64,000 nucleotides of DNA from Pseudomonadota bacterium (GTDB taxonomy: Bacteria; Pseudomonadota; Gammaproteobacteria; JBCCGL01): positions 61-64,060 of the forward strand of contig JBCCGL010000010.1 of assembly GCA_039029275.1 (NCBI GenBank), given 5' to 3'. The notes under the pieces are model-generated. The model saw nothing but the letters and a program-made list of their open reading frames with translations. It was not told where the DNA came from and ran no database searches. Numbering within the stretch: position 1 is the first letter of the stretch; each line of letters opens with the position of its first letter. The position numbers and the translations under genes were made by a program. Below are positions 6,492 through 21,397 of the stretch, in pieces.

Positions 6492-7502
6492 TCAGGCCGG
6501 GAAGAAATCGAGCGGAATGCGAACGGTTGTGTCGCGTACATCCTGAGCACCGAAGTCGATCAGCTTGATGCGCGCAACGAGTTTTCCCTCCAATGCGGGA
6601 TCTTCAAGATCAGACGCGACGACTTTTACTTCAACCACGGCACCGCTCTTGGCAATGGTGATGGCAAAAACGACCTTGCCTTCCAGTGCAGGGTTTTTAC
6701 GCAAAGCGCGATTATAGATGCGGTAAAACGCGCCCTTGTTACGCTCTATTGTGCGCTGGATTTCTTCTTCGTTGCGCAAGCCACCTGTGGTTTTTTTGGT
6801 CTGCTCTTTTTTGGCTGCTTGCTGTACGGCTTTGGTCGCGGTTTCGCTACTCACCTGGCTGGTTTCGCGCGCAGCAACCTGGACATCAGTTGTTTGCTTC
6901 TGAACGTTCTGCGTGCCAACGCCGCCGCTGCCGCTTGTGGTGGTCGATGTGACTGATCGCGTCGCGGTACCGCTTCCGGATTTTGCTGTGACAATGCTAG
7001 TCTGTCCACCGCTCGAAAGCGTATCCTGCTTCAAGGTCGTGAGGCTGCTGGTATCACGTAAATCACTGAGTGAATCGGATAACGCGAGCACGCCGATTTT
7101 CTTCACCTTTTCACGCGCGGCTTCTACCGCAGCCGTTTCAGTAACCGGCTCGGTTTCCGGTTGGGGTTCTACCGGCTCAGGTTCCTCTACTTTTTCTTCG
7201 ACCTTAGGCTCCTCCGGCTCCTCTTCCGGCACCGGCTCCTCTTCTACTTTTTCCTGCTCGACCGGCTCCGGCGGCGGTGGTGGTGGCGGTGCCTGTTTTT
7301 CTTCGATAATGCGTGCGAGACGCGGGGGCAATTCAACTACCTGTGTACGTTCGGGTTCCGGTAACTCGATAAACGGGATGATCAAACCGAACAACAAAAA
7401 TATGCCTAACAGAACAAGCAAAATACGCCAAAAGCGGCGCAGCTCCCCCAATAAGGGATCCCACGGTAACTGCGGTTGGTGAAAAGCGATGGTCGTCGCC
7501 AT
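6492..7502 (-). CDS. tonB: energy transducer TonB
   Basis: N-terminal TM anchor. Pro/Glu/Lys-rich spacer (PPPPPPPEPVEQEKVEEEPVPEE). C-terminal TonB domain '...ALEGKVVFAITIAKSGAVVEVKV'. Confidence 0.85.
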   Translation of the reverse strand: MATTIAFHQPQLPWDPLLGELRRFWRILLVLLGIFLLFGLIIPFIELPEPERTQVVELPPRLARIIEEKQAPPPPPPPEPVEQEKVEEEPVPEEEPEEPKVEEKVEEPEPVEPQPETEPVTETAAVEAAREKVKKIGVLALSDSLSDLRDTSSLTTLKQDTLSSGGQTSIVTAKSGSGTATRSVTSTTTSGSGGVGTQNVQKQTTDVQVAARETSQVSSETATKAVQQAAKKEQTKKTTGGLRNEEEIQRTIERNKGAFYRIYNRALRKNPALEGKVVFAITIAKSGAVVEVKVVASDLEDPALEGKLVARIKLIDFGAQDVRDTTVRIPLDFFPA

Positions 7503-8002
7503 TAAGACTCCACCGCCTTTTGCACGACGGATAGCGAAATCCGACTAAAGTCCGCCGCGGTACACGTGGTCATGATTTTTTTCAGCAGGCGAAATGGAAT
7601 TTCCTTATCGCCGGAAATGGTGATCTCGCGCCCGAGTTCCTCTTCGGCCGGGTTTCTGTATCGACGCAGCCCGGCAAGCACATCAAGCTCGGCCTTTAGT
7701 TCAGCCAGCACGCCGCCCTCAGTGGCCTGCGCCGTTTCGGTCGTCATCACTTTGCGATTTTGTACCAGAATTTCGTTCGCGGTTACCATGATCGTCACGG
7801 TTTCACGCGGTTTTTGCTGTGCAACGGACTCGGGCAGTTGAATCGCTTTGTTGTTTGAAACCTGCACCTCGGATGAATTCACCAAAAGAAAAAACACCAG
7901 AATGGTGAAGATGTCCATCAGCGATATCATGTTGAAACCGGGGTGCTTGCTGGCACGCTCATGGTTTCGTTGCATACGTTTTGTGCGACGCGTCTGTTTC
8001 AT
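7502..8002 (-). CDS. exbD: biopolymer transport protein ExbD/TolR (copy 2)
   Basis: 166 aa, single N-terminal TM 'ISLMDIFTILVFFLLV', ExbD periplasmic domain. Confidence 0.85.
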   Translation of the reverse strand: MKQTRRTKRMQRNHERASKHPGFNMISLMDIFTILVFFLLVNSSEVQVSNNKAIQLPESVAQQKPRETVTIMVTANEILVQNRKVMTTETAQATEGGVLAELKAELDVLAGLRRYRNPAEEELGREITISGDKEIPFRLLKKIMTTCTAADFSRISLSVVQKAVES

Positions 8003-8493
8003 TTTGCATCACCCGGCGGGGGCGCATCGCCGATCGAAATTGCTGGGAACAATTCACGAGAGACGCCATCACTGTGCGCAACGCGCATCGCGTCCATGAC
8101 GGTGACAAGAACGTCGTACTGGACGTCTTCCTCGAGCAAAACTCGCGCATCGAGCGTTTCGGGTGAGCGCGATTTAATTTTCACCAGTAACTCGTTTAGT
8201 GGTGCAACGGGATAAGTATCCCCCTCACGATCAAACGCCTTCACGAGCTTGTTCGCGGCAAACACCTGCAAACTCTGCTCACGCACGACGACCGCGAGGT
8301 CCAGTGATTGTTTGTCTTCTTCGACCTGCGCAGGCTCATCCCCGGAAGGCAAATTGAGTTCGAGAATTGTGATGCGCGAAAACACAGCCGTAATCAACAA
8401 AAACGGCACGAGCACCACCATCAAATTCATAAAGGCGGTGATATTGAGCTCGGCAGGCTCGCGACGGGATCGCAAGCGGCGGCGGATGCTCAT
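7999..8493 (-). CDS. exbD: biopolymer transport protein ExbD/TolR (copy 1)
   Basis: 164 aa, 'ITAFMNLMVVLVPFLLITAVF', 4-nt overlaps with flanking genes (operon). Confidence 0.85.
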   Translation of the reverse strand: MSIRRRLRSRREPAELNITAFMNLMVVLVPFLLITAVFSRITILELNLPSGDEPAQVEEDKQSLDLAVVVREQSLQVFAANKLVKAFDREGDTYPVAPLNELLVKIKSRSPETLDARVLLEEDVQYDVLVTVMDAMRVAHSDGVSRELFPAISIGDAPPPGDAK

Positions 8494-9167
8494 CTATTGG
8501 CGCCCTCGGTGGCGGCCTGCGAGGCGCTTTGGGCGCGCATACGACGGGTGACTGCATTCACGAATTTGACCGAAGCCATTTCCATGCTGTCAACGAGTTC
8601 CGTCGTCTTGGCCTGAATAACAGAGTGGATCAGCAGCAAGGGAATACCCACCATCAGTCCGAATGCGGTGGTGTTCATTGCAATTGAAATACTGGCCGAC
8701 AGCAAATTGGCTTTCTCTGACGGATCGGCTGCCGACACTGCGGTGAACGCCTCGATAAGACCCATAATCGTGCCGAGAAGGCCAAGCAGTGTGGCGATGT
8801 TTGCAAGCGTTGCGATGTAGTGCGTGCGCTTCTCGAGGCGAGGGATAATTTCCATAAGTCCTTCTTCCATCGCCATCTCGATATCACCAGCACGTCGCAA
8901 TGTGCGTGCGTTGTCGAGCCCGTAGCTGATCATTTTGGAAATCGCCGCTTTGGATTTACCGACAAAATTCGCAGCCTGCTGAAAACTTCCGTTCTCGAGC
9001 ATGGGGCCAACCTGTTTCCACGCACGGCTGTTACTCATCTTGGTGCCCGAGAGGTACAAATAGCGTTCAAGAGCAATGGCCAAACCAAATACCAGCACCA
9101 GTGCGATGAAGTACATAAACATTCCACCGGACTGGAAAAATCCGATAAATGACGTTAGAAAATCCAT
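8490..9167 (-). CDS. exbB: MotA/TolQ/ExbB proton-channel protein
   Basis: 225 aa, three TM segments, conserved C-terminal TolQ/ExbB core 'ISIAMNTTAFGLMVGIPLL'. Confidence 0.9.
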   Translation of the reverse strand: MDFLTSFIGFFQSGGMFMYFIALVLVFGLAIALERYLYLSGTKMSNSRAWKQVGPMLENGSFQQAANFVGKSKAAISKMISYGLDNARTLRRAGDIEMAMEEGLMEIIPRLEKRTHYIATLANIATLLGLLGTIMGLIEAFTAVSAADPSEKANLLSASISIAMNTTAFGLMVGIPLLLIHSVIQAKTTELVDSMEMASVKFVNAVTRRMRAQSASQAATEGANR

Positions 9168-9223
9168 GAATGGCTCCCGATTAATAATTCGGTAAACAAA
9201 TGATAGAAGATGACAACCCAGAC

Positions 9224-9502
9224 TTAGTTGCTATTCGCATCCGACAAAGGGTTCAGCTGACGATAGTAGCTCAACTCCCGACGAAACACATCGCGATCAA
9301 CCGGTGTTAGCGCATGCGACAAGACGCTGTCTTGAGGCCGACCGATCGACGAGCCCGGCAAGGCTTTCTTCCACGGCACGATGGTGATCGTTTTCGGTAG
9401 TTCGCGGTTGCCGATAATAGAGATACTGTCGAGCTCAAGCTCATCCTGTGCCGCGACCGAGGACGCCAGCAGCAGTCCCAGGGCAATTAGTCGATACTTC
9501 AT
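9224..9502 (-). CDS. small secreted hypothetical protein (92 aa) in TonB cluster
   Basis: Signal peptide 'LIALGLLLASSVAA'. 4-nt overlap with upstream TPR lipoprotein gene. Confidence 0.45.
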   Translation of the reverse strand: MKYRLIALGLLLASSVAAQDELELDSISIIGNRELPKTITIVPWKKALPGSSIGRPQDSVLSHALTPVDRDVFRRELSYYRQLNPLSDANSN

Positions 9503-10119
9503 GAATTGTTGCTCCGGTTTTTCATGCGTCGCTGCAAATCAATGATCCAGCCTTTAATTTCCTTACTGATTTCACCCTGCAATGCCTCGTAGGCATTGTA
9601 ATGCTTGAGCGCACAATCCAGATCCTGCAAATAAACGTCACATAGTATGCCAAGATTCAAGTGAGCGAGTGAATACGTTTCATCTCCTGAAATCGCACGT
9701 TGATACGATTCACGCGCCTCACCGAAGAAACCGCTACGTCGTTGAATTAGCCCAAGATAATTGTGCGCAACAGCGTTGCCCGGGTGATTTTGCAGCACGA
9801 CTTCGAATGCACCTTGAGCCTCTTCTTGTTGCTCGTTGCTAAAGTAGGCAATGCCAAGGTTCAAACCCAGAGCTGCATATTGTGGGTATTCGAGAACCGG
9901 CTCGCGCAATAGTTCGATCGCGGTCTGTGGTGCGGAATTTTGCAATGCAGATACAGCCGCACGATGCACCTCGATAACGTCATCTGGGATCTCTGACGCA
10001 ACAACTTCCGCCGAATCCAATTGATCAAGCCCTTCCTGTTTGGGCGTGCTACACGCGATCAACGCGGCAAGTAAAAGGATCGTGCTTGCGAGTCGGCAGG
10101 TATGCTTCATTGCTTTCAT
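9499..10119 (-). CDS. TPR-repeat lipoprotein
   Basis: Lipobox 'LLAALIACS'. Repeated TPR consensus (W-LG-Y...A...F..A). Confidence 0.7.
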   Translation of the reverse strand: MKAMKHTCRLASTILLLAALIACSTPKQEGLDQLDSAEVVASEIPDDVIEVHRAAVSALQNSAPQTAIELLREPVLEYPQYAALGLNLGIAYFSNEQQEEAQGAFEVVLQNHPGNAVAHNYLGLIQRRSGFFGEARESYQRAISGDETYSLAHLNLGILCDVYLQDLDCALKHYNAYEALQGEISKEIKGWIIDLQRRMKNRSNNS

Positions 10120-13010
10120 GGCGTCAACTCCGCCACATAGGGATCGGCGACTTCAGTTTTGTTGTAACGCGCGGGAAGAATCTTGGCCAGGGCCTGCAGG
10201 CTGCGCTTTACCCACTCATCGAACACACCTTGCGGCAAGCGCGCTATGTTTATCTCGAACACTTCGATGGCTTGTTCCTCAAATGGAAAGGCTTCGTCTT
10301 CGAGCAATATCTCGTATTGCTCGAGTTCAAGTTCCGACAAACCTGCCGGGCGCTCAGAGTCGAGCAAGGCCTCGCTCAGGCTGCGATAAATTTCACCCGT
10401 GTGGTAGGTCGCTGCGGTGCTGACTTCCTGCACACCGTAGGCTGCAGCGTCTGAATACATATCGAGAGCGGTAGTCATATGCACTTTTTTACGCGCCAGA
10501 CTTTCCTTTAAGGGGATGCTCAACGTTGCGTTTTGATACGCTGCCATTACGGGTTCAGCCAAAATCAGTACAGCGTTAGCGGCAAGGTACCGGGTGCGCG
10601 GCGTTCGCGCGTTGCCTCCACGCTCTTCGACCTGAACTAGCTGATTGAGCCACTCATTCGCGACCTTTTTGTCGCCCAACTCGTTAGACAGATCCGCCAT
10701 TTTTTGGCGCAGTTCGGTCGCTTCGTCGAGTGGATCCGGATACTGAGAAATGTAACGCGCGTATGCTTGTGCCGCTTGTGCAAGCGCACCAGATTCTTCG
10801 TAAAGTTCTGCTGCCTGCAATCCTGCCTCGCGACGAAACTGCGGATTGTCACTCTGGGTTCCAAGGCGGTTGAACTCTCCTGCGGCCGCGAGTTTCTGAT
10901 CACTATTTAAATACGCGACGGCAAGATTGCGCGTAACTTCAGGCTGCAGCTCGCTTTCTGGAAAACGCGTACGGAACTGTTTAAGGATTGCGATTGCTGG
11001 CACCCACTGTTCGGAATCGAGCAATACGGCAGCGGCGTCATATTCGGCGGTCGCTCGTATCGGAGAATCGGGAACAGCTTCACCTACGCGCATAAAGTGA
11101 CCAACCGCTGTGTCTGTTTGACCGATCGCTCTTGCCTCCTCGCCTTGTCGGTAAATCGAAACGGCCAACAGTTCGGTCACACCTGCGCGGCGTTCATCGT
11201 TGTCCGCGAGAAAACGAAGAACCTGCGAATAAGCGGATTCAGCTCGAGCAAAATTTGAAAGTTCGAACTCCGAGTGCGCGATCACTGACCAGGCGGAAAA
11301 ACGCAGCGTCGATTCCGCCGGCGGATTGAGTTCAACCACTTGCGTCGCCACTTCGATGGTTTGTTCGAGTTCGACCAGGGCATATAACTCGTTCGCCGCC
11401 CGCGTCATTACCGCTACCGCATTGGGATGATCGGGAAACTGATCAAAAAAGAACTGCGCACTTTGCACGCTGGCCAGCTTCCATCGTACTGACTCAGTTT
11501 GCAAATACCCCAACTCATTTTCTACCTTCGCCGCAACAATGGTCTTACGCTCAGGCAGCGGCGGCAGAAGCTCCTGATGCTTATCATAAGAGATCATCGC
11601 CGCGTAACCACTTTCGGCCGCTTTGTCATGCAGCTTATATTTGTACGCCGCCTGTTCGTATTCAATTGTAGCTTCGCGATAGCGTCTGCTTTCGAACAAC
11701 GCTTCAGCCATTAAAAAATGCATTCCGGGCGTCTGCTCATTTGCTGGAAAGTGCGTCAGGTAACGACCGTAGTAGCTCACCGCTTGTGCTAACAGTTCCT
11801 GCTGTTTTGCGGGATTTTTTTCTTCCTGCCCGAGTGCGTGTGAGTATTGCGCTAATTCGACGATGTAGTTTTCAAGGTGAGTGCGAACCTCACCAATCAG
11901 TTCAACGTCTTGAATATTCCACTGCGCGTTACGCTCTTCATACAACAAAATGTAATTGCGTTTTTCTTCGAGCACTTTTTCCGGGAAGTCGGCGCGCGCG
12001 TAGGCGTTGATCGCTCGATGCTGAAAAATCGGCGCCTGCCGACTCTGCGGGTGTTGGCGAACAAATTCCAACTCGGCTGTGGCTGAGTCCGCGTAGCGTT
12101 CTTTTTCCAAATAGTGCGCGGCGAGGCTGCCGTAGATCAAATCCTCGTAGAGGCGCGCGTTCCCGCCTTTGAAGTACTCGGGGATGCTGGATGGACCATC
12201 GAGGTACGACATACTCAAACTGACCGCGCGCAGGGCGTCGCCGAGTAATTCACGATCGGTGCGATTTTTTGCCTGCATCTCGAAATAGCCTTCGTCAAGG
12301 CCCGGCAACGTCAGATCGAACAGCGCAATAAATTCCTCGACACCTTCGTCGAAGCGGCTCTGTTTAAACAGCGTCCAACCGCGTTTATAGAGCGCGCGTT
12401 CGTAGTAGCTGGACGACTCACCAAAATCGATCACCTGTTGATAGGCAAGCGCAGCACCGGACAAATCCTCCGCACTGAACATGAGCTCGGCTCTGCGAAA
12501 ATGGACTTCATCGAGCCCTTCAAGATTGGGATAGTTTTCCGCCAGAGAATTCAAGGTTGCGAGTATGTCGTCGCTGCTGCCCTGCTGCTCATATGTTTTT
12601 GCAAGCTGGTAGTAAACGCCCGGTGCGGTGTCGCTCTCCGGATACTCGGCCAGAAGTCGCTCGTAAAAACCTGCCGCCTCGGAGTAGTGTTTGTCGACTG
12701 CTTGACGGTATTCGATCTTCGCGACCTCATTGGTTTCATCGGGCAGCGGAACCGACTCACCGAGTTCGAGCGTCAAGTCAGCGATACGGCGAATGATTTC
12801 AGGCCGCGCCGTGTCATTGGGTTCCAACTCCAACAACAGCTGGTAGTTTTTAAGTGCCTTGTTGCGCGCATCCGGAATTGGCTGGCTGTCGGGCACAACC
12901 GGTTCCACGGTCGGCACCGCAGATAAGGTTTCAGCCTGCATGACAACGGGTTCGGGCGTCGTGCATGCACTGGTCATTAAACCCAAAACCACGATCAGGC
13001 CGTACCTCAC
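10116..13010 (-). CDS. large tetratricopeptide-repeat protein (964 aa)
   Basis: Signal/lipoprotein-like N-terminus 'LIVVLGLMTSAC'. Many TPR-like helical repeats throughout. Confidence 0.7.
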   Translation of the reverse strand: MRYGLIVVLGLMTSACTTPEPVVMQAETLSAVPTVEPVVPDSQPIPDARNKALKNYQLLLELEPNDTARPEIIRRIADLTLELGESVPLPDETNEVAKIEYRQAVDKHYSEAAGFYERLLAEYPESDTAPGVYYQLAKTYEQQGSSDDILATLNSLAENYPNLEGLDEVHFRRAELMFSAEDLSGAALAYQQVIDFGESSSYYERALYKRGWTLFKQSRFDEGVEEFIALFDLTLPGLDEGYFEMQAKNRTDRELLGDALRAVSLSMSYLDGPSSIPEYFKGGNARLYEDLIYGSLAAHYLEKERYADSATAELEFVRQHPQSRQAPIFQHRAINAYARADFPEKVLEEKRNYILLYEERNAQWNIQDVELIGEVRTHLENYIVELAQYSHALGQEEKNPAKQQELLAQAVSYYGRYLTHFPANEQTPGMHFLMAEALFESRRYREATIEYEQAAYKYKLHDKAAESGYAAMISYDKHQELLPPLPERKTIVAAKVENELGYLQTESVRWKLASVQSAQFFFDQFPDHPNAVAVMTRAANELYALVELEQTIEVATQVVELNPPAESTLRFSAWSVIAHSEFELSNFARAESAYSQVLRFLADNDERRAGVTELLAVSIYRQGEEARAIGQTDTAVGHFMRVGEAVPDSPIRATAEYDAAAVLLDSEQWVPAIAILKQFRTRFPESELQPEVTRNLAVAYLNSDQKLAAAGEFNRLGTQSDNPQFRREAGLQAAELYEESGALAQAAQAYARYISQYPDPLDEATELRQKMADLSNELGDKKVANEWLNQLVQVEERGGNARTPRTRYLAANAVLILAEPVMAAYQNATLSIPLKESLARKKVHMTTALDMYSDAAAYGVQEVSTAATYHTGEIYRSLSEALLDSERPAGLSELELEQYEILLEDEAFPFEEQAIEVFEINIARLPQGVFDEWVKRSLQALAKILPARYNKTEVADPYVAELTP

Positions 13011-15094
13011 TGCAGCGGCACCTCGGTTTCATCTGGAAGATCATCTGCTGTCTCAGGAATCTCCACAGCCGCCCGATCGTAAACCTGTGCGAGCGAATAG
13101 CGCGCTTGAAGTTGATAGCTCGTTAGTCTCTCGCTTAAGTTATTCAGACGCTCGACCGCCAGAGATTCAAGTCGTCTCCTCAGTTGCGCTGCAACTCGCT
13201 CGACATCGACGAAAGCACTTTCAACGCGACTACGTCCATCACGAATTCGGACGTCGAGCACGTCGTAATTATCCGGCGCCGACTGTTGCGCCGATTTCAG
13301 CGATGCCAGACGGGTTGCCGCGATTCCAATCTGGATTTCGAGTTCGGCAAGCTGCTTTTCGATCTCACGTTTACGAGCGAAGTAATCGGCTTGAACCTCC
13401 CACAACAAAACACCGCGCAGCAAACGCGCTTTCTCCCACGCTGGCATAAGATCCTGCGCCTGCGGATTGCTGCTCAGTGCCGCGCGCTGAACCGATTGAG
13501 CAATACGTAACTCACGCGCGTGCGGCGACAGCTCACCGCCACTTTTGTAGCTCGCCGGTTCTCGAGGTTCGTCAAAAAACCTGTCGAACCCATACAGCGT
13601 TGCCAAAGGGCTAACGGTTGTGGAATTTGCGACCTCGCTGAGGTGTTTGCTGACACTTTCGATCGACGCCCATTGACGTTTGTGCGCAGGCCTGGCGAAG
13701 AAAATTAAATCACCCGCCTGCTCCGCTTGCCCGACCTGTGTCTGCCAGTTGTTGTATCGAGTGCGCGTTTGATCAAGATCGAGTTGCTCGACGTAATCTT
13801 GCGTTAGGGGTAGTTGGCGAGCATAGCGTTGCTCGCGCGTCGATAGCATGTCCTCAAATGCGTCAATTGATGTTTGCCAGTGTTGCAGGTTGCGTCGGAG
13901 CTGGTGAATTTCCCGCAAATTCTGAAACGTCTGCTGAAACGCGTTGCTCGCCATCAAATCGCGAAAATAGCGCAGTCCTGCGAGATCGGATTGTTTCAGA
14001 TCGGCCCCAACCCTGATTCGTACCGGAAGTGCAAGCAGGTTGTCGAGCAGTTCGCCGTCGCGCACGGAATCGATTGTTCCAGCAAGATTAACCTGTTCAC
14101 GCTCGTACGCGTCCAACGCAAACTGATATCCGTCGGCTGCCTGCGAATACGCGCCGAGTTCGCCGTAGGCATAGGGAATCGCCAGTAATGCCTCCTGCAC
14201 GGAGGGATCGCTACTGTCGCGCTGGGCCAGTGCTCTCCACGGCGCCAGCGCCTGCTGATAGCTCTCTGCTTCGCCGTCTGCCCAGCCGCTGCCAAGCAGT
14301 GCCTGATTCGAGTACGGCCCTTCCAGACGCACAAAACTTAAATACGCTTTGGCCGCGCTGAAATCTTGCTCGTCGAGCAATCGATACCCGATCGCGAGGT
14401 TGGCCTTGTCACGCAACGTGTAGACTTCATCATCGACCGGCGGCGCTTGCGCCACTTTTTCCAGCGTCAGCAATCCTTCCTGCAGATCGCCATTTTGCAT
14501 CTGCGCAATACCGTAGTTGTACTGCGCGTAGGCGCGCCACGCGCCCGGCATCTCTTGCCAGTCGGCCAAAGACTCGATTGCGTCCGCAGGGCGAAACTGA
14601 CGCAGGGCGATGGTTGCGCGAATCAGCGATTGTTCGGCATGGATTGGCGAGCCAACCTCTGCCATCACTTTTTGCATGGCTTGATCGGCGTCAGATAAAT
14701 ACCCGCGCTGGTACAAGAGCTTACCGAGAAAAAACCACGCGCGATCACGTACGCTGGCCGAGACCTCTTCAGTCAGCAACTGTCGGAAAATCTCTTCCGC
14801 CTCGATGTGTAAGCCGTACTCGAGCTTAAGCCCGCCCATTAACAGGCGCGCGTTTTCGACGTGATGTTCGATGCGGTCGCGCTCCTGCGAAACGAGCAGG
14901 TTGACCAGCGCGTTGAACGGTGCGCTCTGATAGTGGTAAAACAAGACTTCGCCATAATGGATATCGCGAATTGCCCCAATATCCTGCGCGCGCAAACTTG
15001 TTGGCGCTTCTTCAGCTGATGCGTTTACACACAGCGCCGCGAATGCAATCGCGCACAGCAGCGAGCGAAACAGGCCTGAACGGCGAACTACCAT
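13007..15094 (-). CDS. tetratricopeptide-repeat protein (695 aa), secreted
   Basis: Signal peptide 'LLCAIAFAALCVNASA'. TPR-like repeats (e.g. 'AWFFLGKLLYQRGYLSDA'). Overlaps downstream gene start by 4 nt. Confidence 0.7.
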   Translation of the reverse strand: MVVRRSGLFRSLLCAIAFAALCVNASAEEAPTSLRAQDIGAIRDIHYGEVLFYHYQSAPFNALVNLLVSQERDRIEHHVENARLLMGGLKLEYGLHIEAEEIFRQLLTEEVSASVRDRAWFFLGKLLYQRGYLSDADQAMQKVMAEVGSPIHAEQSLIRATIALRQFRPADAIESLADWQEMPGAWRAYAQYNYGIAQMQNGDLQEGLLTLEKVAQAPPVDDEVYTLRDKANLAIGYRLLDEQDFSAAKAYLSFVRLEGPYSNQALLGSGWADGEAESYQQALAPWRALAQRDSSDPSVQEALLAIPYAYGELGAYSQAADGYQFALDAYEREQVNLAGTIDSVRDGELLDNLLALPVRIRVGADLKQSDLAGLRYFRDLMASNAFQQTFQNLREIHQLRRNLQHWQTSIDAFEDMLSTREQRYARQLPLTQDYVEQLDLDQTRTRYNNWQTQVGQAEQAGDLIFFARPAHKRQWASIESVSKHLSEVANSTTVSPLATLYGFDRFFDEPREPASYKSGGELSPHARELRIAQSVQRAALSSNPQAQDLMPAWEKARLLRGVLLWEVQADYFARKREIEKQLAELEIQIGIAATRLASLKSAQQSAPDNYDVLDVRIRDGRSRVESAFVDVERVAAQLRRRLESLAVERLNNLSERLTSYQLQARYSLAQVYDRAAVEIPETADDLPDETEVPLQ

Positions 15095-15684
15095 TCTTTG
15101 ATAACGAATTCGGGCTGCTCTTTGCTCTGTCGATCTGAAATGATCAACTCGACGTATTTGGGCCCTAATTCTTTCTCGACAACCATGGTAGAACCACGAC
15201 GGTACTCACGGCCGTTGGGCCCAATGCCGGTGAATATAGCGATGAGTTCGTGCTCGCCGGTTGTGAGATTTCCAGTGAATAGCCGTTGCACACCGCCGCG
15301 CAGAAGCGCTTCGGTCTCACGCGGCGTGTAGAGGTAATTAGCGGTGTTTGTGCCGTCGATGGTCAGTTGCACCGAATCGAGGGCGAAGAACGTGCCCACG
15401 TCCATCGACACGAAAACCGAGATCTGTGTACTGGCCGGAAACAGCAAATCTTCTTCGAGAATGTAGAGGTCTCGATTGATATCAAGCAGTGTCTGTTTGA
15501 GCGTTTGGATCTCGGTGTCGAGGTCGCTGACGCTGTCCTCGTCATTGGCGCTGGCAACACCAATCACAAGTAGTAGTGTCAGCAGGAGGTTCGTAAATGA
15601 TTTCACTGTTTTTCCGATGTTGAGCCACGAGCAAGAAAGTGTATGCATACAGATTAACTTTACATCATGCTCGCATACTGGCAA
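15088..15684 (-). CDS. secreted hypothetical protein, first gene of the TonB/TPR cluster (possibly DUF3450-like); true start likely internal
   Basis: Internal signal peptide 'KSFTNLLLTLLLVIGVASA', then a coiled-coil segment. 7-nt overlap with the next gene. Confidence 0.4.
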   Translation of the reverse strand: MPVCEHDVKLICMHTLSCSWLNIGKTVKSFTNLLLTLLLVIGVASANDEDSVSDLDTEIQTLKQTLLDINRDLYILEEDLLFPASTQISVFVSMDVGTFFALDSVQLTIDGTNTANYLYTPRETEALLRGGVQRLFTGNLTTGEHELIAIFTGIGPNGREYRRGSTMVVEKELGPKYVELIISDRQSKEQPEFVIKEW

Positions 15685-16975: not shown

Positions 16976-18007
16976 ATGCCCGGGAATTCAATTTTGGTGA
17001 CAGGCGGTGCCGGTTATATCGGTAGCCATACCTGTGTTGAACTATTGCAGTCTGGATTTGAACTGGTTGTATTCGATGACCTGAGCAACAGCAAAGTCGA
17101 GTCACTGCAACGCGTGCAACGCATCACCGGAAAAGCACCGGGATTTGTCGAAGGTGACGTGCGTGATCGCGCTGCGCTACGCGATGTTTTTGCCCGGTAC
17201 GATATCGGTGCAGTCATCCATTTTGCCGGCCTAAAAGCTGTCGGTGAGTCATCGCAAATACCGTTACGCTACTACGACGTCAACGTGGGCGGCAGCATTG
17301 CTCTCGCCGACGTCATGCAAGAATTCGGTTGCTTTCGATTCGTGTTCAGCTCATCGGCAACCGTTTACGGTGCCGATGCACCGATCCCGTATGTGGAGAC
17401 CTACCCGACCGGCGCGATAAACGTTTACGGTCGCACCAAGCTGATGGTCGAAGAGATCTTACGCGACGCCTGCAATCAGCCGGACAGCCAATGGAAGGTA
17501 ACGCTGCTCCGGTACTTTAATCCAATCGGCGCGCACAGCAGCGGCTTGATCGGTGAAGATCCACAGGGCATTCCTAATAACTTGCTGCCGTACGTTGCCC
17601 AGGTCGCAGTCGGCAAATTGCCTCAATTACAGGTGTACGGTGACGATTACCCCACCGTCGACGGCACCGGCGTGCGTGACTACATCCATGTCGTCGACCT
17701 GGCGCGCGGTCATGTGCGCGCCTTGCAAACGATGGATGACATCAGCACGGGCTGTCGCGTTTACAATCTGGGCGGCGGCAAAGGCTCAAGCGTGTTCGAA
17801 GTGATCAAGGCGTTCGAGAAAGCCAGCGGTAAAAACATTCCCTACAAGGTGGCGCCGCGCCGCGAGGGTGATCTGGCCGAATACTATGCAAATGCCGAGT
17901 TGGCTTTGAAAGAACTTAACTGGAAAACAGAGTACGACCTCGACACCATGGTTGCCGATACCTGGCGCTGGCAGTCAAACAATCCGGACGGATTTGACAG
18001 CAAGTAG
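16976..18007 (+). CDS. galE: UDP-glucose 4-epimerase
   Basis: 'ILVTGGAGYIGSHT' Rossmann fold, YxxxK, 343 aa, typical GalE throughout. Confidence 0.9.
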   Translation: MPGNSILVTGGAGYIGSHTCVELLQSGFELVVFDDLSNSKVESLQRVQRITGKAPGFVEGDVRDRAALRDVFARYDIGAVIHFAGLKAVGESSQIPLRYYDVNVGGSIALADVMQEFGCFRFVFSSSATVYGADAPIPYVETYPTGAINVYGRTKLMVEEILRDACNQPDSQWKVTLLRYFNPIGAHSSGLIGEDPQGIPNNLLPYVAQVAVGKLPQLQVYGDDYPTVDGTGVRDYIHVVDLARGHVRALQTMDDISTGCRVYNLGGGKGSSVFEVIKAFEKASGKNIPYKVAPRREGDLAEYYANAELALKELNWKTEYDLDTMVADTWRWQSNNPDGFDSK

Positions 18008-18026: not shown

Positions 18027-19349
18027 TTAATAGAGAACGTGATCGATGCGCGGGTGATTGGCCGTTGCCAACCGCGCAGCGAGAATCTTGGAAAACGTCT
18101 TGTAGTAGTAAAGCTGCGTGTTCGATGAAATCTTGTCGAAAAACTCGTGGCTGATACGGTACAGGCTGACTGGCGACACGGCCTCGATTGTCGCGATACT
18201 CTTCTCCTGATTGATAAATCCCATCTCGCCAAAGCAGTCTCCGCAGCCAATGACTTCCATCAATCGGCCGCTGCGGCGCGCAACCATCTCGCCCGAAGTA
18301 ACCAGATAAAGGTGGTCGTCGACTTCGCCTTCTTCGAGCACCACATCGCCAGGATTGTGTCGCACCAGAGTACTCGATTCGGCCAACTGGTCGATCTCAG
18401 CTTCGGTCATTTCCTTGAACACTGCGATATCCCGCAGTGCGGATCGTCGTTCGCTAAGACTCGTCGAGCGTGACACCGGTCGCATCCGATCGGCCATCCG
18501 TGAGATTTCGTCGGCGAATTCTCCGCCGGTCTGGTAGCGCTTGTCGGGGTCTTTCTGCAGTGCCTTGTCGAGAATATCGGACAAGTGCCCGGGAAGGTCG
18601 CTGCGGACATCGCTTAAGCGAGGCGCGGGTTGTCCAACCACACAGCGGAATAAATCACGCACCTTTTTTGCTTCGAACAGCTGCTTTCCGGTCAGCATTT
18701 CAAACATGACTGTGGCGAGCGAATACAAATCGCTTTGCGGCCCTAACGACACCCCGAGAATCTGCTCTGGCGACATGTAGTTCGGGGTGCCCAGCGACGG
18801 ACCACCTTTGCTGATCGCTTTTTGCGTTGTCGAGATTGCGATACCAAAATCGAGCAATTTTGATACGCCTTCGTCTGTCAGCATAATGTTAGAGGGCTTG
18901 ATATCGCGATGAATGATGCCCTGCTTATGCGAGTAGTCGAGCGCTTGCGCGCACTCAAAAATAATTTCCAATACCTTATGCGGCGGCAGTTGTTTCTGTC
19001 GTTTGCCGTACTTGCTCAGTGGCGTGCCGCGCGCGTATTCCATTATCAGGTAATTGAGATTTTCCTCGATGCCTGCGTCGTACAAGGCAACGATATGCGG
19101 GTGTTTGAGTTTGCCCGCAGCGGCGGCTTCGGTCAGAAACGCACGCTGCGCGGCGGGGAATTTTTTCGAATCGGTCTCACCACTGTCATTGAGCGATATC
19201 TTGATTGCGACCTCACGGTAAATCACCGGATCGTAGCCTTTGTAGACCACGCCGCACGTGCCGCTACCGAGACACTGCCCGACTTCGTACTTGCCGATTC
19301 GATCAGGTACGTTAATACCTAGTGACAATGCGTGGGTTGGTTTAGCCAT
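18027..19349 (-). CDS. Hanks-type Ser/Thr protein kinase fused to a C-terminal cyclic-nucleotide-binding (CAP-effector) domain
   Basis: Kinase subdomains 'LGSGTCGVVYKG', 'VAIK', 'HRDIKPSNIML', 'DFGIA', 'PNYMSPEQ'. C-terminal cNMP-binding domain 'GEVDDHLYLVTSGEM...FGEMGFINQEKSIATIEA'. Start set at the internal ATG (MAKPTHAL) to avoid overlap with mpl; the ORF could extend to 19436. Confidence 0.8.
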   Translation of the reverse strand: MAKPTHALSLGINVPDRIGKYEVGQCLGSGTCGVVYKGYDPVIYREVAIKISLNDSGETDSKKFPAAQRAFLTEAAAAGKLKHPHIVALYDAGIEENLNYLIMEYARGTPLSKYGKRQKQLPPHKVLEIIFECAQALDYSHKQGIIHRDIKPSNIMLTDEGVSKLLDFGIAISTTQKAISKGGPSLGTPNYMSPEQILGVSLGPQSDLYSLATVMFEMLTGKQLFEAKKVRDLFRCVVGQPAPRLSDVRSDLPGHLSDILDKALQKDPDKRYQTGGEFADEISRMADRMRPVSRSTSLSERRSALRDIAVFKEMTEAEIDQLAESSTLVRHNPGDVVLEEGEVDDHLYLVTSGEMVARRSGRLMEVIGCGDCFGEMGFINQEKSIATIEAVSPVSLYRISHEFFDKISSNTQLYYYKTFSKILAARLATANHPRIDHVLY

Positions 19350-19408
19350 TCGTATCTTGCGTTTTTCTACGTTGCCAATTCGTGGTTGTTCAATACAAGA
19401 TCGTTTCG

Positions 19409-20812
19409 CTAGCGCTTTGCGACTTCGATTGCACAACCCTGTTTATTTCTTTCGACCAGCGACTTTATTACTTTATCGTGTATGTTACCAAAACTGCCGT
19501 TTGACATGATCAATACATGATCGCCATTCTGCACGCTTGCCAGCACCGCTTTCGTGACAGAGTCGACGCTGGCCATCAAGCCTACGTGACCGTGTTGCAC
19601 ATGTCGTTCGATACCTTCCAGAGTTTCGGTGTCGGCGCAATGTACCAGAGTTTCGTCAGCCAAATCAAAGGTTTGCGAAAGTTCTCTGGAGTGAGTTCCC
19701 ATTCGCATTGTGTTTGATCGCACATCTACGACGGCGAGAATCCGCTCATTCACGCCAATCGTGCGACGCAATGCAACAATTGTGGCTTTAATTGCGGTGG
19801 GATGATGGGCGAAATCGTCGTAGATCGTGATGCCATCGATCTTCGCGCGCACTTCGAGCCGACGCTTAACACCGGCGAACGATGTCAGCGCTGCCGCAGC
19901 ATGCTCGGGTGTGACGCCGACGTGGCGGGCCGCTGCTATTGCAGCCAGCGCGTTCATGGCGTTGTGCGCGCCTACCATCGACCACAGCAGATCGACAGGC
20001 GCGTCGCTGTGCGGCGGGACTATCCTGGCGGATACGGGGTCAGACCTATCAAGCTGCCATGCGTTCGCCGCAGACCCTGCGTTTGAACCAAAACGTTCTA
20101 TGTCTGACCAGCAGCCCATTGCCAGAACCGACTCTAAATTCGCATCATCGCCATTGACAAGCAGACGGCCGCTGGCGGGTACCGTGCGAATCAGGTGATG
20201 AAACTGGCGTTTAATATCGCTGAGTGAGTCAAAAATATCGGCATGATCGAACTCGAGATTGTTCAGTATCAAGGTGCGCGGGTGGTAGTGGACAAACTTC
20301 GAGCGCTTGTCGAAAAACGCGGTGTCGTATTCATCTGCCTCAACAACGAAAAACGGCGCCTTTCCCAAGCGCGCCGAAATGCCAAAGTTATGCGCAATCC
20401 CGCCGATCAAGAACCCCGGTTGCAACCCGGCGTGTTCGAGGATCCACGCGAGGATACTACTGGTTGTCGTCTTCCCGTGCGTGCCAGCGACTGCAAGTAC
20501 CCAGCGATCCCGAAGAGCATTTTCCAGCAGCCACTGCGGTCCGGACGTGTAGGCGATTCCCATTTCCAGAATTGATTCGACTTCGACGTTACCGCGCGAC
20601 AGCGCATTGCCAATCACGACACAGTCGACATCCTCGGGAATGTTTTCTGCTCTGTACCCCTCGTTCAGTTCGATCCCCGCTTCCTGCAATTGGGTACTCA
20701 TGGGAGGGTAGATACCCGCGTCAGAGCCGCTCACATCGTGACCGAGTTCACGCGCAAGCAGCGCAATGCCACCCATAAACGTGCCGCAAATTCCAACGAT
20801 ATGCAGTTTCAC
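19409..20812 (-). CDS. mpl: UDP-N-acetylmuramate:L-alanyl-gamma-D-glutamyl-meso-DAP ligase (murein peptide ligase)
   Basis: 'MKLHIVGICGTFMGGIALLARELGHDVSGSD' Mur-ligase N-terminus, 467 aa. Confidence 0.9.
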   Translation of the reverse strand: MKLHIVGICGTFMGGIALLARELGHDVSGSDAGIYPPMSTQLQEAGIELNEGYRAENIPEDVDCVVIGNALSRGNVEVESILEMGIAYTSGPQWLLENALRDRWVLAVAGTHGKTTTSSILAWILEHAGLQPGFLIGGIAHNFGISARLGKAPFFVVEADEYDTAFFDKRSKFVHYHPRTLILNNLEFDHADIFDSLSDIKRQFHHLIRTVPASGRLLVNGDDANLESVLAMGCWSDIERFGSNAGSAANAWQLDRSDPVSARIVPPHSDAPVDLLWSMVGAHNAMNALAAIAAARHVGVTPEHAAAALTSFAGVKRRLEVRAKIDGITIYDDFAHHPTAIKATIVALRRTIGVNERILAVVDVRSNTMRMGTHSRELSQTFDLADETLVHCADTETLEGIERHVQHGHVGLMASVDSVTKAVLASVQNGDHVLIMSNGSFGNIHDKVIKSLVERNKQGCAIEVAKR

Positions 20813-21397
20813 TTACAGCGCATCCACTGGGCTGACTTGCGGGGCAGGGAAGATCATCGCAGCAATCGTGATGACACTGACCACGTAGACCATGGACATC
20901 ATTATTCCAACCGACAGGCGCGTATCAAAACCGTGGCGCAAGATATGGCCCATCACGATGATGCTCCATACGTGCAAGCTGAGCATCGCCACCTGACCCG
21001 ACACGCCAAGCTCGGCGATCGATTCCAGACTTTCAAGACCTTGATAGATGGGCCATGACACCAGAGAAATAACCAATCCGGCACCGCACAGTGCGGTGTA
21101 CAACTGCAGAAAGCGCTCGCGATGGCCGCTCATGGAAAGCCCAATCAACAATGCCAACGCGAGTATTACTTGTTCAAGAATGGATCGCTGCAGCGCCTCG
21201 ACAGCACCGAGTAAAGACGAGAATATCGAAACGTTGGCGACAATTACGGCGATCAGAGTCAGCACCGCGGTGACGGGCGTGCCGGTTACGTCTTGAGGCT
21301 TGGCCCGCAATAAAAACAACCGGAAAAAATAAGTGAGCAGAAAAAAACACAGGCGCATGGGGCATTCCGTCCACCGACAAAGCGGCATGGCTGGCAT
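20813..21397 (-). CDS. hypothetical polytopic inner-membrane protein (start probably at internal Met near 21358)
   Basis: About 5 predicted TM helices. Stop abuts mpl start by 1 nt. Confidence 0.5.
   Translation of the reverse strand: MPAMPLCRWTECPMRLCFFLLTYFFRLFLLRAKPQDVTGTPVTAVLTLIAVIVANVSIFSSLLGAVEALQRSILEQVILALALLIGLSMSGHRERFLQLYTALCGAGLVISLVSWPIYQGLESLESIAELGVSGQVAMLSLHVWSIIVMGHILRHGFDTRLSVGIMMSMVYVVSVITIAAMIFPAPQVSPVDAL

What the first reader, a model, noticed from the sequence alone, without database searches (positions are those of the whole stretch)
18027..19349. Bacterial Hanks kinase with C-terminal cyclic-nucleotide-binding domain (PKA/PKG-like fusion in reverse order)
A complete eukaryotic-like Ser/Thr kinase catalytic core is followed by a CAP-family cNMP-binding domain carrying the 'FGEMG...A' phosphate-binding cassette pattern. 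Such direct kinase-cNMP fusions are uncommon in proteobacteria. They imply cAMP/cGMP-gated phosphosignalling. The gene is wedged between galE and mpl, both cell-envelope genes.
Basis: seen in the sequence. Interest (0 to 1): 0.6.

Follow-up and report, generated by a model that had tools for sequence, protein, structure and literature searches.

The report
PknB-type kinase with degenerate cNMP-binding domain
This gene does encode a bacterial Ser/Thr kinase fused to a cyclic-nucleotide-binding fold, but the fold has lost the arginine that clamps cAMP/cGMP, and the fusion belongs to a large, unstudied gammaproteobacterial family rather than being a rarity.

Summary
ORF 18027-19349 (minus strand, 440 aa) has a complete Hanks kinase core (Pfam Pkinase, E 1.5e-50) and one C-terminal cNMP_binding domain (E 1.5e-16), between galE and mpl.

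- **Not PKA/PKG-like by descent.** The kinase domain is PknB-type (Foldseek TM 0.93 to M. tuberculosis PknB), so this is an independent fusion.
- **Not rare.** At least 490 species-level genomes encode a relative, and all 120 listed protein-search hits show the kinase.
- **The phosphate clamp is missing.** The cassette FGEMGFINQEKSIATIEA keeps Gly-Glu, but Ser384 replaces the phosphate-clamping Arg.

In a 204-sequence family alignment the kinase catalytic residues are invariant. Arg is the inferred ancestral state (87 sequences, K-R-T-A-T). The window protein sits in one monophyletic Arg-less clade. That clade has a fast-evolving CNB domain and a new conserved C-terminal tail (hydrophobic-D-x-x-hydrophobic).

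Gating by cAMP/cGMP is plausible for distant orthologues but doubtful here. The gene lies directly downstream of mpl in nine related loci.

No characterised member turned up in nine literature searches. I rate it a new variant of a known kind, of moderate interest.

The parts
18027..19349 (-). Complete CDS of the kinase-CNB protein (440 aa plus stop)
   Evidence: The N-terminus MAKPTHAL aligns with Met1 of the close homologues. The mechanical TTG ORF start at 19436 overlaps the end of mpl and has no homologue support.
18531..19289 (-). Hanks (PknB-type) Ser/Thr kinase catalytic domain, residues 21-273
   Evidence: Pfam Pkinase E 1.5e-50. Catalytic residues are 100% conserved in 204 relatives. 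The AF2 model matches PknB structures at TM 0.93 and 34% identity.
18423..18530 (-). Linker, residues 274-309: two helices joined by a low-confidence loop around residues 290-297
   Evidence: AF2 secondary structure gives H275-289 and H298-306, with a pLDDT dip at 293-295. An 'RRSA' string here is not conserved in homologues.
18060..18422 (-). Cyclic-nucleotide-binding-fold domain, residues 310-430 (beta-barrel plus C-helix)
   Evidence: Pfam cNMP_binding at 60.5 bits. PDB sequence hits to PKG and PKA-R CNB domains. The CNB-only AF2 model (pLDDT 86.5) matches PKA-R, PKG and HCN CNB structures at TM 0.7-0.8.
18180..18233 (-). Phosphate-binding-cassette equivalent, FGEMGFINQEKSIATIEA (residues 373-390)
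   Evidence: G374 is invariant and E375 is present in 203 of 204 family sequences. The C-terminal half varies within the window's clade.
18198..18200 (-). Ser384 codon, at the position of the phosphate-clamping Arg (PKA RI-alpha R209)
   Evidence: HMMER alignment to Plasmodium PKG CNB domains places Ser384 opposite the Arg of P-R-T-A-S. Family counts at this position are R 87, E 72, S 25, other 20.
18030..18059 (-). C-terminal tail NHPRIDHVLY, carrying the clade-specific motif hydrophobic-D436-x-x-hydrophobic
   Evidence: The motif is in 111 of 117 Arg-less sequences and 0 of 87 Arg-type sequences. D436 is invariant in A4. AF2 models the tail as coil at pLDDT 63-75.
19350..19408 (-). 59-nt mpl-kinase spacer with no promoter- or terminator-like site
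   Evidence: The spacing is short or overlapping in relatives, including a 4-bp overlap in L005.
19409..20812 (-). mpl (UDP-MurNAc:tripeptide ligase), directly upstream on the same strand
   Evidence: TIGR01081 at 625.7 bits, cut-off 388.7. The mpl-kinase adjacency is conserved in 9 related loci.
20813..21397 (-). 194-aa predicted membrane protein with no family match; it abuts mpl and is probably the first gene of the unit
   Evidence: No Pfam, NCBIfam or PADLOC hit. It is conserved upstream in relatives, including Granulosicoccaceae loci that lack mpl at this site.
16976..18007 (+). galE, convergent; its stop codon is 19 nt from the kinase stop codon
   Evidence: TIGR01179 at 448 bits. Sequence. 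A convergent galE-like gene also follows the kinase in L012, L016 and L018.

Best explanation
The gene encodes a soluble cytoplasmic, catalytically competent PknB-type Hanks Ser/Thr kinase. It is fused by a roughly 35-residue, mostly helical linker to a single C-terminal CNB-fold domain that acts as its cis-regulatory module. It is most likely transcribed as the last gene of a membrane-protein-mpl-kinase unit.

The protein belongs to a large, apparently vertically inherited gammaproteobacterial family. The ancestral CNB domain of that family has a canonical phosphate-binding cassette (FGE...[K/R]-R-T-A-[T/S]) and is plausibly cAMP/cGMP-responsive. This protein lies in a derived monophyletic subclade with three changes:
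1. The phosphate-clamping Arg is lost (Ser384 here).
2. The C-terminal half of the cassette and the beta2-beta3 loop have lost their conservation.
3. A new, conserved extreme C-terminal motif has appeared (here I-D436-H-V-L-Y).

I therefore infer that this CNB-homology domain no longer responds to cAMP or cGMP in the canonical way. It would regulate the kinase by intramolecular contacts or dimerisation, possibly involving its own tail. The output would be activation-loop autophosphorylation (an RD kinase with Ser/Thr at 173-175) and phosphorylation of cytoplasmic substrates. Mpl and peptidoglycan recycling are the leading candidate targets.

**Shown:** domains, motifs, Arg loss, clade structure, synteny.
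**Inferred:** loss of cNMP response, regulatory role of the tail, co-transcription, substrates.
For: **Domains and fold.**. No transmembrane segment: the maximum 19-residue hydropathy is 0.95.

**Kinase.** Catalytic residues are invariant in 204 relatives.

**Arg loss.** Ser384 aligns to the cassette Arg of PKG and PKA-R. All nine other sequences at least 54% identical to the window protein also lack Arg.

**Clade structure.** On a neighbour-joining tree built from the kinase domain only, 115 Arg-less sequences form one clade nested among Arg-bearing lineages. The Fitch root state is Arg.

**Relaxed constraint.** The Arg and Ser groups have equal kinase divergence (64% pairwise identity). CNB identity is 60% in the Arg group and 39% in the Ser group. 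For the C-terminal half of the cassette it is 65% against 33%. The beta2-beta3 loop motif E-G-E-x-D is near-invariant only in the Arg group.

**Charge swap.** Position 384 covaries with loop position 345. Arg pairs with Asp or Asn in 82 of 87 sequences, Glu pairs with Arg in 72 of 72, and Asp pairs with Arg in 5 of 5. This fits the known contact between the cassette Arg and the beta2-beta3 loop (PMC2246266). It shows the site was remodelled, not misaligned.

**Tail.** The motif is present in 111 of 117 Arg-less sequences and 0 of 87 Arg-type sequences. D436 is invariant.

**Operon.** The spacer is 59 nt with no terminator-like site. mpl is directly upstream in 9 related loci at 39-57% identity, covering both Arg-type and Arg-less members.

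**Precedents.** Arg-less CNB domains that do not bind cNMP include the kinetoplastid PKA-R (PMC10959531) and the KCNH CNB-homology domain (PMC5299623). Mur ligases interact with PknA/PknB, and in-vitro work on corynebacterial MurC and mycobacterial MurD is cited there (PMC3605390).
Against: - No binding or activity data exist. Loss of one Arg lowers cNMP affinity but does not always abolish it: R209K in PKA gives roughly a ten-fold loss (PMC2246266).
- Gly374-Glu375 and the N-terminal half of the cassette are even better conserved in the Arg-less clade (84-92%). A ribose-type contact could therefore persist.
- Lys383 sits next to Ser384.
- Arg loss and tail gain map to one branch. Their association is a single evolutionary event, not statistics.
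- AF2 does not place the tail with confidence (coil, pLDDT 63-75). I could not inspect coordinates or PAE.
- The mpl linkage is absent in 58 Steroidobacteraceae/Nevskiales-type loci, where the upstream genes are nusB-thiL. It may reflect conserved core-genome order rather than function.
- The sequence sample is biased towards the best search hits.
Confidence: 0.5

Rival explanations
1. One reading: a cAMP- or cGMP-gated Ser/Thr kinase. Cyclic nucleotide binds the C-terminal CNB domain and releases or activates the kinase, as a bacterial single-chain analogue of PKA/PKG.
For: The cNMP_binding match is well above threshold. The closest solved relatives of the domain are the cNMP-binding CNB domains of PKG and PKA-R. 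Gly374 is invariant and Glu375 is present in 203 of 204 family sequences. Lys383 is adjacent to the missing Arg. Arg-type orthologues have a textbook K-R-T-A-T cassette, so the family as a whole probably began as cNMP-regulated.
Against: - Ser384 replaces the phosphate-clamping Arg.
- Lys383 is not conserved among close relatives, which read LSVAT, NTHYG and GSLSS.
- The phosphate-binding half of the cassette evolves about twice as fast as in Arg-type orthologues at equal kinase divergence.
- The sister subclade puts Glu or Asp at this position, with a compensating Arg in the beta2-beta3 loop.
- No cyclase, phosphodiesterase, PP2C or FHA gene was found among the window ORFs that I scanned. This is weak evidence, because the window is only 64 kb and several ORFs were not scanned.
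Confidence: 0.25
2. The CNB domain has been re-tuned to a different, uncharged or differently charged small ligand, such as a nucleoside or a cell-wall or nucleotide-sugar metabolite. This would parallel the kinetoplastid PKA regulatory subunit, which binds purine nucleosides instead of cAMP.
For: In Trypanosoma PKA-R the cassette Arg is replaced by polar residues and the following Ala by Val, and the ligand becomes inosine or guanosine (PMC10959531). The window protein has Ser-Ile at the same two positions. The ribose-contacting FGE half of the cassette is strongly conserved. The fold is intact.
Against: The kinetoplastid hallmark, Glu at cassette position 5, is absent: that position is Gly377 here. 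The remodelled half of the pocket is not conserved within the clade at 33-43% identity, which argues against a shared new specific ligand.
Confidence: 0.15
3. A stand-alone anti-phage defence kinase of the PD-T4-6 or Stk2 type that happens to carry a CNB domain.
For: The kinase domain scores 274 bits against PADLOC PD-T4-6 models and also hits mad6.
Against: The matches cover only the generic kinase core (residues 18-293) and fall below NCBIfam cut-offs. The gene sits in conserved housekeeping synteny across hundreds of species: pyrC/rnt, mpl, galE, or rib-nusB-thiL. GC content matches the flanks. I saw no defence-system or mobile-element genes nearby. No plasmid record carries the full architecture.
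Confidence: 0.03

Closest known systems
PknB / PknA / Stk1-type bacterial Hanks kinases (M. tuberculosis PknB catalytic domain, e.g. PDB 1O6Y, 5U94)
   Same: The catalytic domain fold and sequence match: TM 0.93, 33-35% identity, an RD kinase with a Ser/Thr-containing activation loop. The best NCBIfam model is PknB_PASTA_kin. A link to peptidoglycan genes is plausible, because Mur ligases interact with PknA/PknB (PMC3605390).
   Different: There is no transmembrane helix and no extracellular PASTA sensor; the score of 262.7 is below the 450 cut-off. The sensor here is a cytoplasmic C-terminal CNB-fold domain. The host is gammaproteobacterial, not Gram-positive.
Eukaryotic PKG, and PKA regulatory plus catalytic subunits
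   Same: A CNB fold is coupled to a Ser/Thr kinase. The CNB domain's nearest solved relatives by sequence and fold are the CNB domains of Plasmodium PKG and PKA-R.
   Different: The kinase is not AGC-type. The domain order is reversed. There is one CNB domain, not two to four. No conserved pseudosubstrate is present. The cassette Arg is missing in this protein. It is an independent fusion, not a permuted PKG.
KCNH (EAG/ERG/ELK) cyclic-nucleotide-binding homology domain with an intrinsic ligand
   Same: A CNB fold that lacks the phosphate-clamping Arg. A short conserved segment lies just after the C-helix (PMC5299623). The mouse EAG1 CNB-homology domain is among the Foldseek hits (4F8A, TM 0.67).
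   Different: Occupation of the pocket by the tail is not shown here; AF2 models the tail as coil. The tail motif centres on an invariant Asp rather than Tyr-x-Leu. The output domain is a kinase, not a channel.
Kinetoplastid PKA regulatory subunit (nucleoside-binding 'ribose-binding cassette')
   Same: The cassette Arg is replaced by a small polar residue followed by a branched hydrophobic residue: Thr/Asn-Val there, Ser-Ile here (PMC10959531).
   Different: It lacks the Glu at cassette position 5 that contacts the ribose hydroxyls in kinetoplastids. The remodelled residues are not conserved within the clade.
'Other_bacterial' CNB class of Kannan et al. 2007 (bacterial CNB domains fused to CheY, rhodanese, kinases and DNA-binding domains)
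   Same: Bacterial CNB-kinase fusions were already catalogued at the domain level (PMC2246266).
   Different: That class has a canonical cassette consensus (GEMALLDGEPRSATVVA). No experimental study of a Hanks-kinase member turned up in my nine literature searches.

Membership tests
Hanks-type Ser/Thr protein kinase (Pfam PF00069) | Profile match above the curated threshold | tested here: met
   172.5 bits against a 31.7 cut-off, residues 21-273.
Hanks-type Ser/Thr protein kinase (Pfam PF00069) | Catalytic motifs: GxGxxG, VAIK Lys, alpha-C Glu, HRDxKxxN, DFG, (A/S)PE | tested here: met
   G28/G30/G33, K50, E74, H147-R148-D149-K151-N154, D167-F-G and E195 are present, and invariant in 204 relatives.
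Hanks-type Ser/Thr protein kinase (Pfam PF00069) | Bilobal kinase fold | tested here: met
   AF2 pLDDT is mostly above 90 in the domain. TM is 0.93 to PknB.
Hanks-type Ser/Thr protein kinase (Pfam PF00069) | Phosphotransfer activity | not testable with these tools
   Needs an in vitro autophosphorylation assay.
PASTA kinase (PknB/StkP/PrkC, NF033483) | Transmembrane helix plus extracellular PASTA repeats; score above the equivalog cut-off | tested here: not met
   262.7 bits against a 450 cut-off, and only the kinase part aligns. No hydrophobic segment: maximum hydropathy 0.95.
Cyclic-nucleotide-binding domain (Pfam PF00027 / CNB fold) | Profile match above threshold, and the eight-stranded beta-barrel with cassette helix and C-helix | tested here: met
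   60.5 bits against a 27.5 cut-off. The CNB-only AF2 model has TM 0.7-0.8 to PKA-R, PKG and HCN CNB domains.
Functional cAMP/cGMP-binding CNB domain | Cassette Gly-Glu (ribose 2'-OH contact) | tested here: met
   G374-E375 are present; G374 is invariant and E375 occurs in 203 of 204 family sequences.
Functional cAMP/cGMP-binding CNB domain | Cassette Arg that clamps the cyclic phosphate (PKA RI-alpha R209) | tested here: not met
   Ser384 is at this position. Arg is present in 87 of 204 relatives, but in none at least 54% identical to the window protein.
Functional cAMP/cGMP-binding CNB domain | Conserved beta2-beta3 loop coupled to the cassette Arg (Gly169/Asp170 region) | tested here: inconclusive
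   The loop motif E-G-E-x-D-D is near-invariant in Arg-type relatives and relaxed in the Arg-less clade. The window protein keeps EGEVDD. By my alignment the family has Asp, not Gly, at the Gly169 position.
Functional cAMP/cGMP-binding CNB domain | Measured cNMP binding | not testable with these tools
   Needs ITC, DSF or a fluorescent cNMP analogue.
PKA/PKG (AGC kinase regulated by CNB domains) | AGC-type catalytic domain with a C-terminal tail and hydrophobic motif | tested here: not met
   The top 26 Foldseek hits are bacterial PknB, PknA and Stk1. No PKA or PKG appears in the top 50.
PKA/PKG (AGC kinase regulated by CNB domains) | Tandem CNB domains N-terminal to the kinase (or on a separate R subunit), with a pseudosubstrate or inhibitor site | tested here: not met
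   A single CNB domain lies C-terminal to the kinase. The 'RRSA' in the linker is not conserved.
Self-liganded CNB-homology domain (KCNH type) | CNB fold without the phosphate-binding Arg | tested here: met
Self-liganded CNB-homology domain (KCNH type) | Conserved segment after the C-helix that occupies the ligand pocket | tested here: inconclusive
   A conserved tail exists: 111 of 117 sequences carry the motif and D436 is invariant. AF2 gives coil at pLDDT 63-75, and I had no coordinates to check docking.
PD-T4-6 / defence kinases (PADLOC) | Profile match together with a defence-island or variable genomic context | tested here: not met
   The 274-bit hit covers the kinase core only. The context is conserved housekeeping synteny.

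The most novel reading that the evidence does not exclude
One orthologous bacterial kinase family may record the transition from a cNMP-gated CNB domain to a self-liganded CNB-homology domain. After the cassette Arg was lost, a newly evolved C-terminal tail (hydrophobic-Asp436-x-x-hydrophobic) would occupy or gate the former nucleotide pocket and set kinase activity. In the sister subclade, an Arg-Asp contact between the cassette and the beta2-beta3 loop was inverted to Glu-Arg. If so, this would be the first prokaryotic, and the first kinase-linked, counterpart of the KCNH 'intrinsic ligand'. It could couple to peptidoglycan recycling through phosphorylation of the co-transcribed Mur ligase Mpl.
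Probability: 0.12. Interest if true: 0.7.

Novelty: new variant of a known kind. Interest (0 to 1): 0.45.

Why it matters
No Hanks kinase with a cytoplasmic CNB sensor turned up as experimentally characterised in my searches, yet this family is present in hundreds of gammaproteobacterial species. It includes cultured ones such as Solimonas flava DSM 18980 and Fontimonas sp..

The family offers a natural comparison set. Arg-type members have a textbook cassette, and two kinds of Arg-less members exist: Ser or variable residues, and a charge-swapped Glu/Arg pair. Binding assays and Arg-restoring mutants could test directly how CNB domains lose or change ligand specificity, and how such a domain controls a PknB-type kinase.

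For annotation, the practical lesson is that a cNMP_binding Pfam hit does not justify a 'cAMP/cGMP-regulated' label when the cassette Arg is absent.

The recurrent position directly after mpl suggests a possible cytoplasmic, Gram-negative counterpart to the PASTA-kinase control of cell-wall metabolism. That link rests on inference only.

Tried and rejected
- **Exhaustive representative search with the CNB region (residues 268-440).** It returned 15,840 hits at E<=1e-3 and 1,690 at E<=1e-10. The top of the list was swamped by multi-CNB repeat proteins, so it gave no usable family size. I used the genome scan instead.
- **Foldseek against afdb50.** The library was not installed.
- **Pseudosubstrate idea.** The linker string 'SERRSAL' resembles a PKA R-subunit inhibitor site, but the Ser and the Arg-Arg are not conserved even among close homologues. 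Rejected.
- **Tail docking.** Neither the full-length nor the CNB-only AF2 model gives the tail regular structure or high confidence. No coordinates or PAE were available, so this stays unresolved.
- **Fisher test of tail motif against Arg (p about 5e-51).** Rejected as evidence, because the kinase-domain tree shows a single origin.
- **Upstream-gene classifier.** My script had an indexing error for thiL, so those loci show '?'. The thiL count (58 loci) comes, and its identity from my reading of the sequences printed.
- **Partner genes.** I looked for a cyclase, phosphodiesterase, PP2C phosphatase or FHA partner among most large ORFs of the window and found none. A few ORFs were not scanned.
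- **Defence-system reading.** PADLOC hits are generic kinase similarity.
- **Plasmid search.** No record carries the full architecture.
- **Literature.** Nine searches found no experimental work on a bacterial Hanks kinase-CNB fusion. There is only a domain-level mention (PMC2246266).
Full report

Yes. The only long ORF at the site runs on the minus strand from 19349 (ATG) to the stop at 18027-18029 and encodes 440 aa. A mechanically longer TTG start at 19436 overlaps the end of mpl. It has no support from homologues, whose N-termini align with Met1.

Pfam gives Pkinase at residues 21-273 (E 1.5e-50, 172.5 bits) and cNMP_binding at residues 330-407 (E 1.5e-16, 60.5 bits against a 27.5 cut-off). 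The quoted motif is residues 373-390, FGEMGFINQEKSIATIEA.

The flanking genes are as stated:
- galE (16976-18007, +) matches TIGR01179 at 448 bits.
- mpl (19409-20812, -) matches TIGR01081 at 626 bits.

GC content is level across the region. An identical protein is in NCBI as a MAG 'serine/threonine-protein kinase'.

**2. The kinase half**

All catalytic motifs are present: GSGTCG, VAIK (K50), E74, HRDIKPSN (D149, N154), DFG (D167) and SPE (E195). Each is invariant in a 204-sequence family alignment.

The AF2 model has mean pLDDT 85.6 and pTM 0.66. It superposes on M. tuberculosis PknB catalytic domains at TM 0.93 and 33-35% identity. S. aureus Stk1/PknB and M. tuberculosis PknA follow, and no PKA or PKG appears in the top 50. 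The best NCBIfam model is PknB_PASTA_kin, matched over the kinase part only and below its cut-off.

There is no hydrophobic segment; the maximum 19-residue hydropathy is 0.95. The protein is therefore a soluble PknB-type RD kinase. It is not an AGC kinase, and 'PKA/PKG in reverse order' describes an analogy, not descent.

**3. The CNB half**

The fold is genuine. Sequence search of the PDB finds Plasmodium PKG CNB domains and PKA regulatory subunits, at about 1e-10 per domain. A CNB-only AF2 model (pLDDT 86.5, pTM 0.78) matches PKA-R, PKG, HCN and EAG1 CNB domains at TM 0.67-0.81.

The cassette Gly-Glu (G374, E375) is present. The residue aligned with the phosphate-clamping Arg (PKA RI-alpha R209; P-R-T-A-S in PKG) is Ser384, followed by Ile385.

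**4. The family**

- All 120 listed hits of the protein search show the kinase; all but three also have a precomputed cNMP_binding hit.
They come from Chromatiales, Granulosicoccaceae, Nevskiales (Solimonas, Fontimonas, Nevskia, Sinimarinibacterium), Steroidobacteraceae, Woeseiaceae and Thioalkalivibrio.
- Bacterial CNB-kinase fusions were already listed at the domain level in 2007 (PMC2246266).
- Nine literature searches found no experimental study of one.

**5. Evolution of the ligand site**

In 204 aligned members, the residue at position 384 is Arg in 87, Glu in 72, Ser in 25 and something else in 20. Arg-type members carry a textbook cassette, FGE-x-S/G-Y/F-...-A-K-R-T-A-T-I-x-A.

I built a neighbour-joining tree from the kinase domain alone, so it is independent of the CNB domain. 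On it, 115 Arg-less sequences form one clade nested among Arg-bearing lineages. Parsimony infers Arg at the root, one major loss and two singleton losses. The window protein lies in that Arg-less clade. All nine other sequences at least 54% identical to it lack Arg; two of these, P0001 and L002, duplicate the window and P0007 proteins.

The Arg and Ser groups have equal kinase-domain divergence (64% pairwise identity) but differ in the CNB domain:

| Region | Arg group | Ser group |
|---|---|---|
| Whole CNB domain | 60% | 39% |
| C-terminal (phosphate-binding) half of the cassette | 65% | 33% |
| N-terminal half of the cassette (FGE-x-G-F) | 69% | 84% |

The beta2-beta3 loop motif E-G-E-x-D is near-invariant only in the Arg group.

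Position 384 covaries with loop position 345:
- Arg384 pairs with Asp or Asn345 in 82 of 87 sequences.
- Glu384 pairs with Arg345 in 72 of 72.
- Asp384 pairs with Arg345 in 5 of 5.

In PKA the cassette Arg packs against this loop (PMC2246266). The covariation therefore supports the alignment. It also shows that, in the Granulosicoccus-type subclade, a carboxylate now sits where the phosphate clamp was. The window protein has Ser384 and Asp345, which gives neither a clamp nor a bridge.

**6. A clade-specific tail**

The Arg-less clade ends in a conserved motif, [LIVMPA]-D-x-x-[LIVFYM], within the last ten residues. Here it reads R-I-D436-H-V-L-Y.

- It occurs in 111 of 117 Arg-less sequences and in none of 87 Arg-type sequences.
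- In an alignment of 26 Arg-less CNB domains, D436 is invariant alongside G353, G370, G374, E375, F378 and Y416.

Loss of Arg and gain of the tail map to one branch. This is a single historical coincidence, not a statistical association.

The tail recalls the KCNH CNB-homology domain, where residues just after the C-helix fill the pocket as an 'intrinsic ligand' (PMC5299623). AF2 leaves the tail as coil at pLDDT 63-75 in both models, and I had no coordinates to inspect. The idea remains a hypothesis. Docking of the tail on the kinase N-lobe, or a role as a C-terminal degradation signal, are untested alternatives.

**7. Genomic context**

The kinase start lies 59 nt after the mpl stop, with no promoter- or terminator-like site in the gap. 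The mpl start abuts a 194-aa membrane-protein gene that has no family match.

- The order membrane protein-mpl-kinase, divergent from pyrC-rnt, recurs in relatives at 39-57% identity. These are L002, L003, L005 (4-bp overlap), L006, L007, L008, L014, L017 and L039. They include both Arg-type and Arg-less members, so the linkage predates the Arg loss.
- Granulosicoccaceae keep membrane protein-kinase without mpl, and a convergent galE-like gene follows in three loci.
- In 58 loci, mostly labelled Steroidobacteraceae or unclassified Gammaproteobacteria/Proteobacteria, the kinase instead follows ribD-ribE-ribBA-ribH-nusB-thiL. I assigned those identities by reading the cluster representatives, not by a profile search.

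The gene is thus always the tail of a housekeeping operon, with mpl the recurrent but not universal partner. Mur ligases interact with PknA/PknB in actinobacteria, and earlier in-vitro work on corynebacterial MurC and mycobacterial MurD is cited there (PMC3605390). That makes Mpl a reasonable candidate substrate, by inference only.

No cyclase, phosphodiesterase, PP2C or FHA gene was found among the window ORFs that I scanned.

**8. Mechanism and alternatives**

| Reading | Confidence |
|---|---|
| Active PknB-type kinase whose CNB-homology domain regulates it in cis but no longer responds to cAMP/cGMP canonically | about 0.5 |
| Still cNMP-gated (FGE retained, Lys383 adjacent; but Lys383 not conserved and the site is relaxed) | about 0.25 |
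| Re-tuned to another ligand, as in kinetoplastid PKA-R (PMC10959531); the hallmark Glu at cassette position 5 is absent and the new residues are not conserved | about 0.15 |
| Defence kinase (PADLOC PD-T4-6 hits are generic; the context is core genome) | about 0.03 |

**9. Verdict**

This is a member of a widespread but unstudied family and represents a derived, probably cNMP-insensitive, variant. I rate it a new variant of a known kind, with interest about 0.45.

The most novel reading still open is a self-liganded prokaryotic CNB-homology domain controlling a kinase. I give it about 0.12 probability.

Noticed in passing
window 20813-21397 (-): A 194-aa predicted multi-pass membrane protein with no Pfam, NCBIfam or PADLOC match. 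It abuts the mpl start. It is conserved (26-37% identity) upstream of the kinase locus in relatives, including Granulosicoccaceae loci where mpl is missing. It may be the more constant partner of the kinase.
   Followed up: partly
Family alignment; e.g. L009 5236-6708, L011 5032-6708, P0019, P0028: A charge swap between the cassette Arg position and beta2-beta3 loop position 345. Arg pairs with Asp or Asn in 82 of 87 sequences, Glu with Arg in 72 of 72, and Asp with Arg in 5 of 5. It looks like a structural contact kept with inverted polarity after the phosphate clamp was lost.
   Followed up: partly
L020, L052 and 56 other loci (mostly labelled Steroidobacteraceae or unclassified Gammaproteobacteria): In these relatives the kinase-CNB gene sits at the end of a ribD-ribE-ribBA-ribH-nusB-thiL string, where E. 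coli has pgpA (the E. coli comparison is from memory). FolE2-like and dxs-like genes lie downstream. Gene identities come from my reading of the sequences.
   Followed up: partly
window 6492-15684 (-): A long same-strand cluster. It holds a 198-aa protein, 695-aa and 964-aa TPR proteins, a 206-aa TPR protein, MotA/ExbB, two ExbD genes and a 336-aa protein with no family match. It resembles a Ton/Tol-like energising system with very large TPR partners.
   Followed up: no
window 37386-40007 (-): An 873-aa protein whose only Pfam hit is the hydrazine synthase alpha-subunit middle domain (HZS_alpha, 60 bits). Nearby are a DUF3570 protein (33759-34988) and an SH3/OMP beta-barrel protein (36449-37201).
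   Followed up: no
window 5610-6341 (-): A 243-aa ORF with only an HATPase_c domain at E<=1e-4. No HisKA or sensor domain was detected.
   Followed up: no
P0020, P0021, P0025, P0027 (Arg-type subclade): Some Arg-type family members carry long C-terminal extensions after the CNB domain, up to about 190 residues and rich in Pro, Gln, Ala and Glu. The Arg-less clade instead ends within about 12 residues of the C-helix.
   Followed up: no
window 18027-19349, kinase domain: PADLOC PD-T4-6 and mad6 models score up to 274 bits on this housekeeping-context kinase. These defence models appear to pick up ordinary Hanks kinases, so they could mislead automated defence-system annotation.
   Followed up: partly
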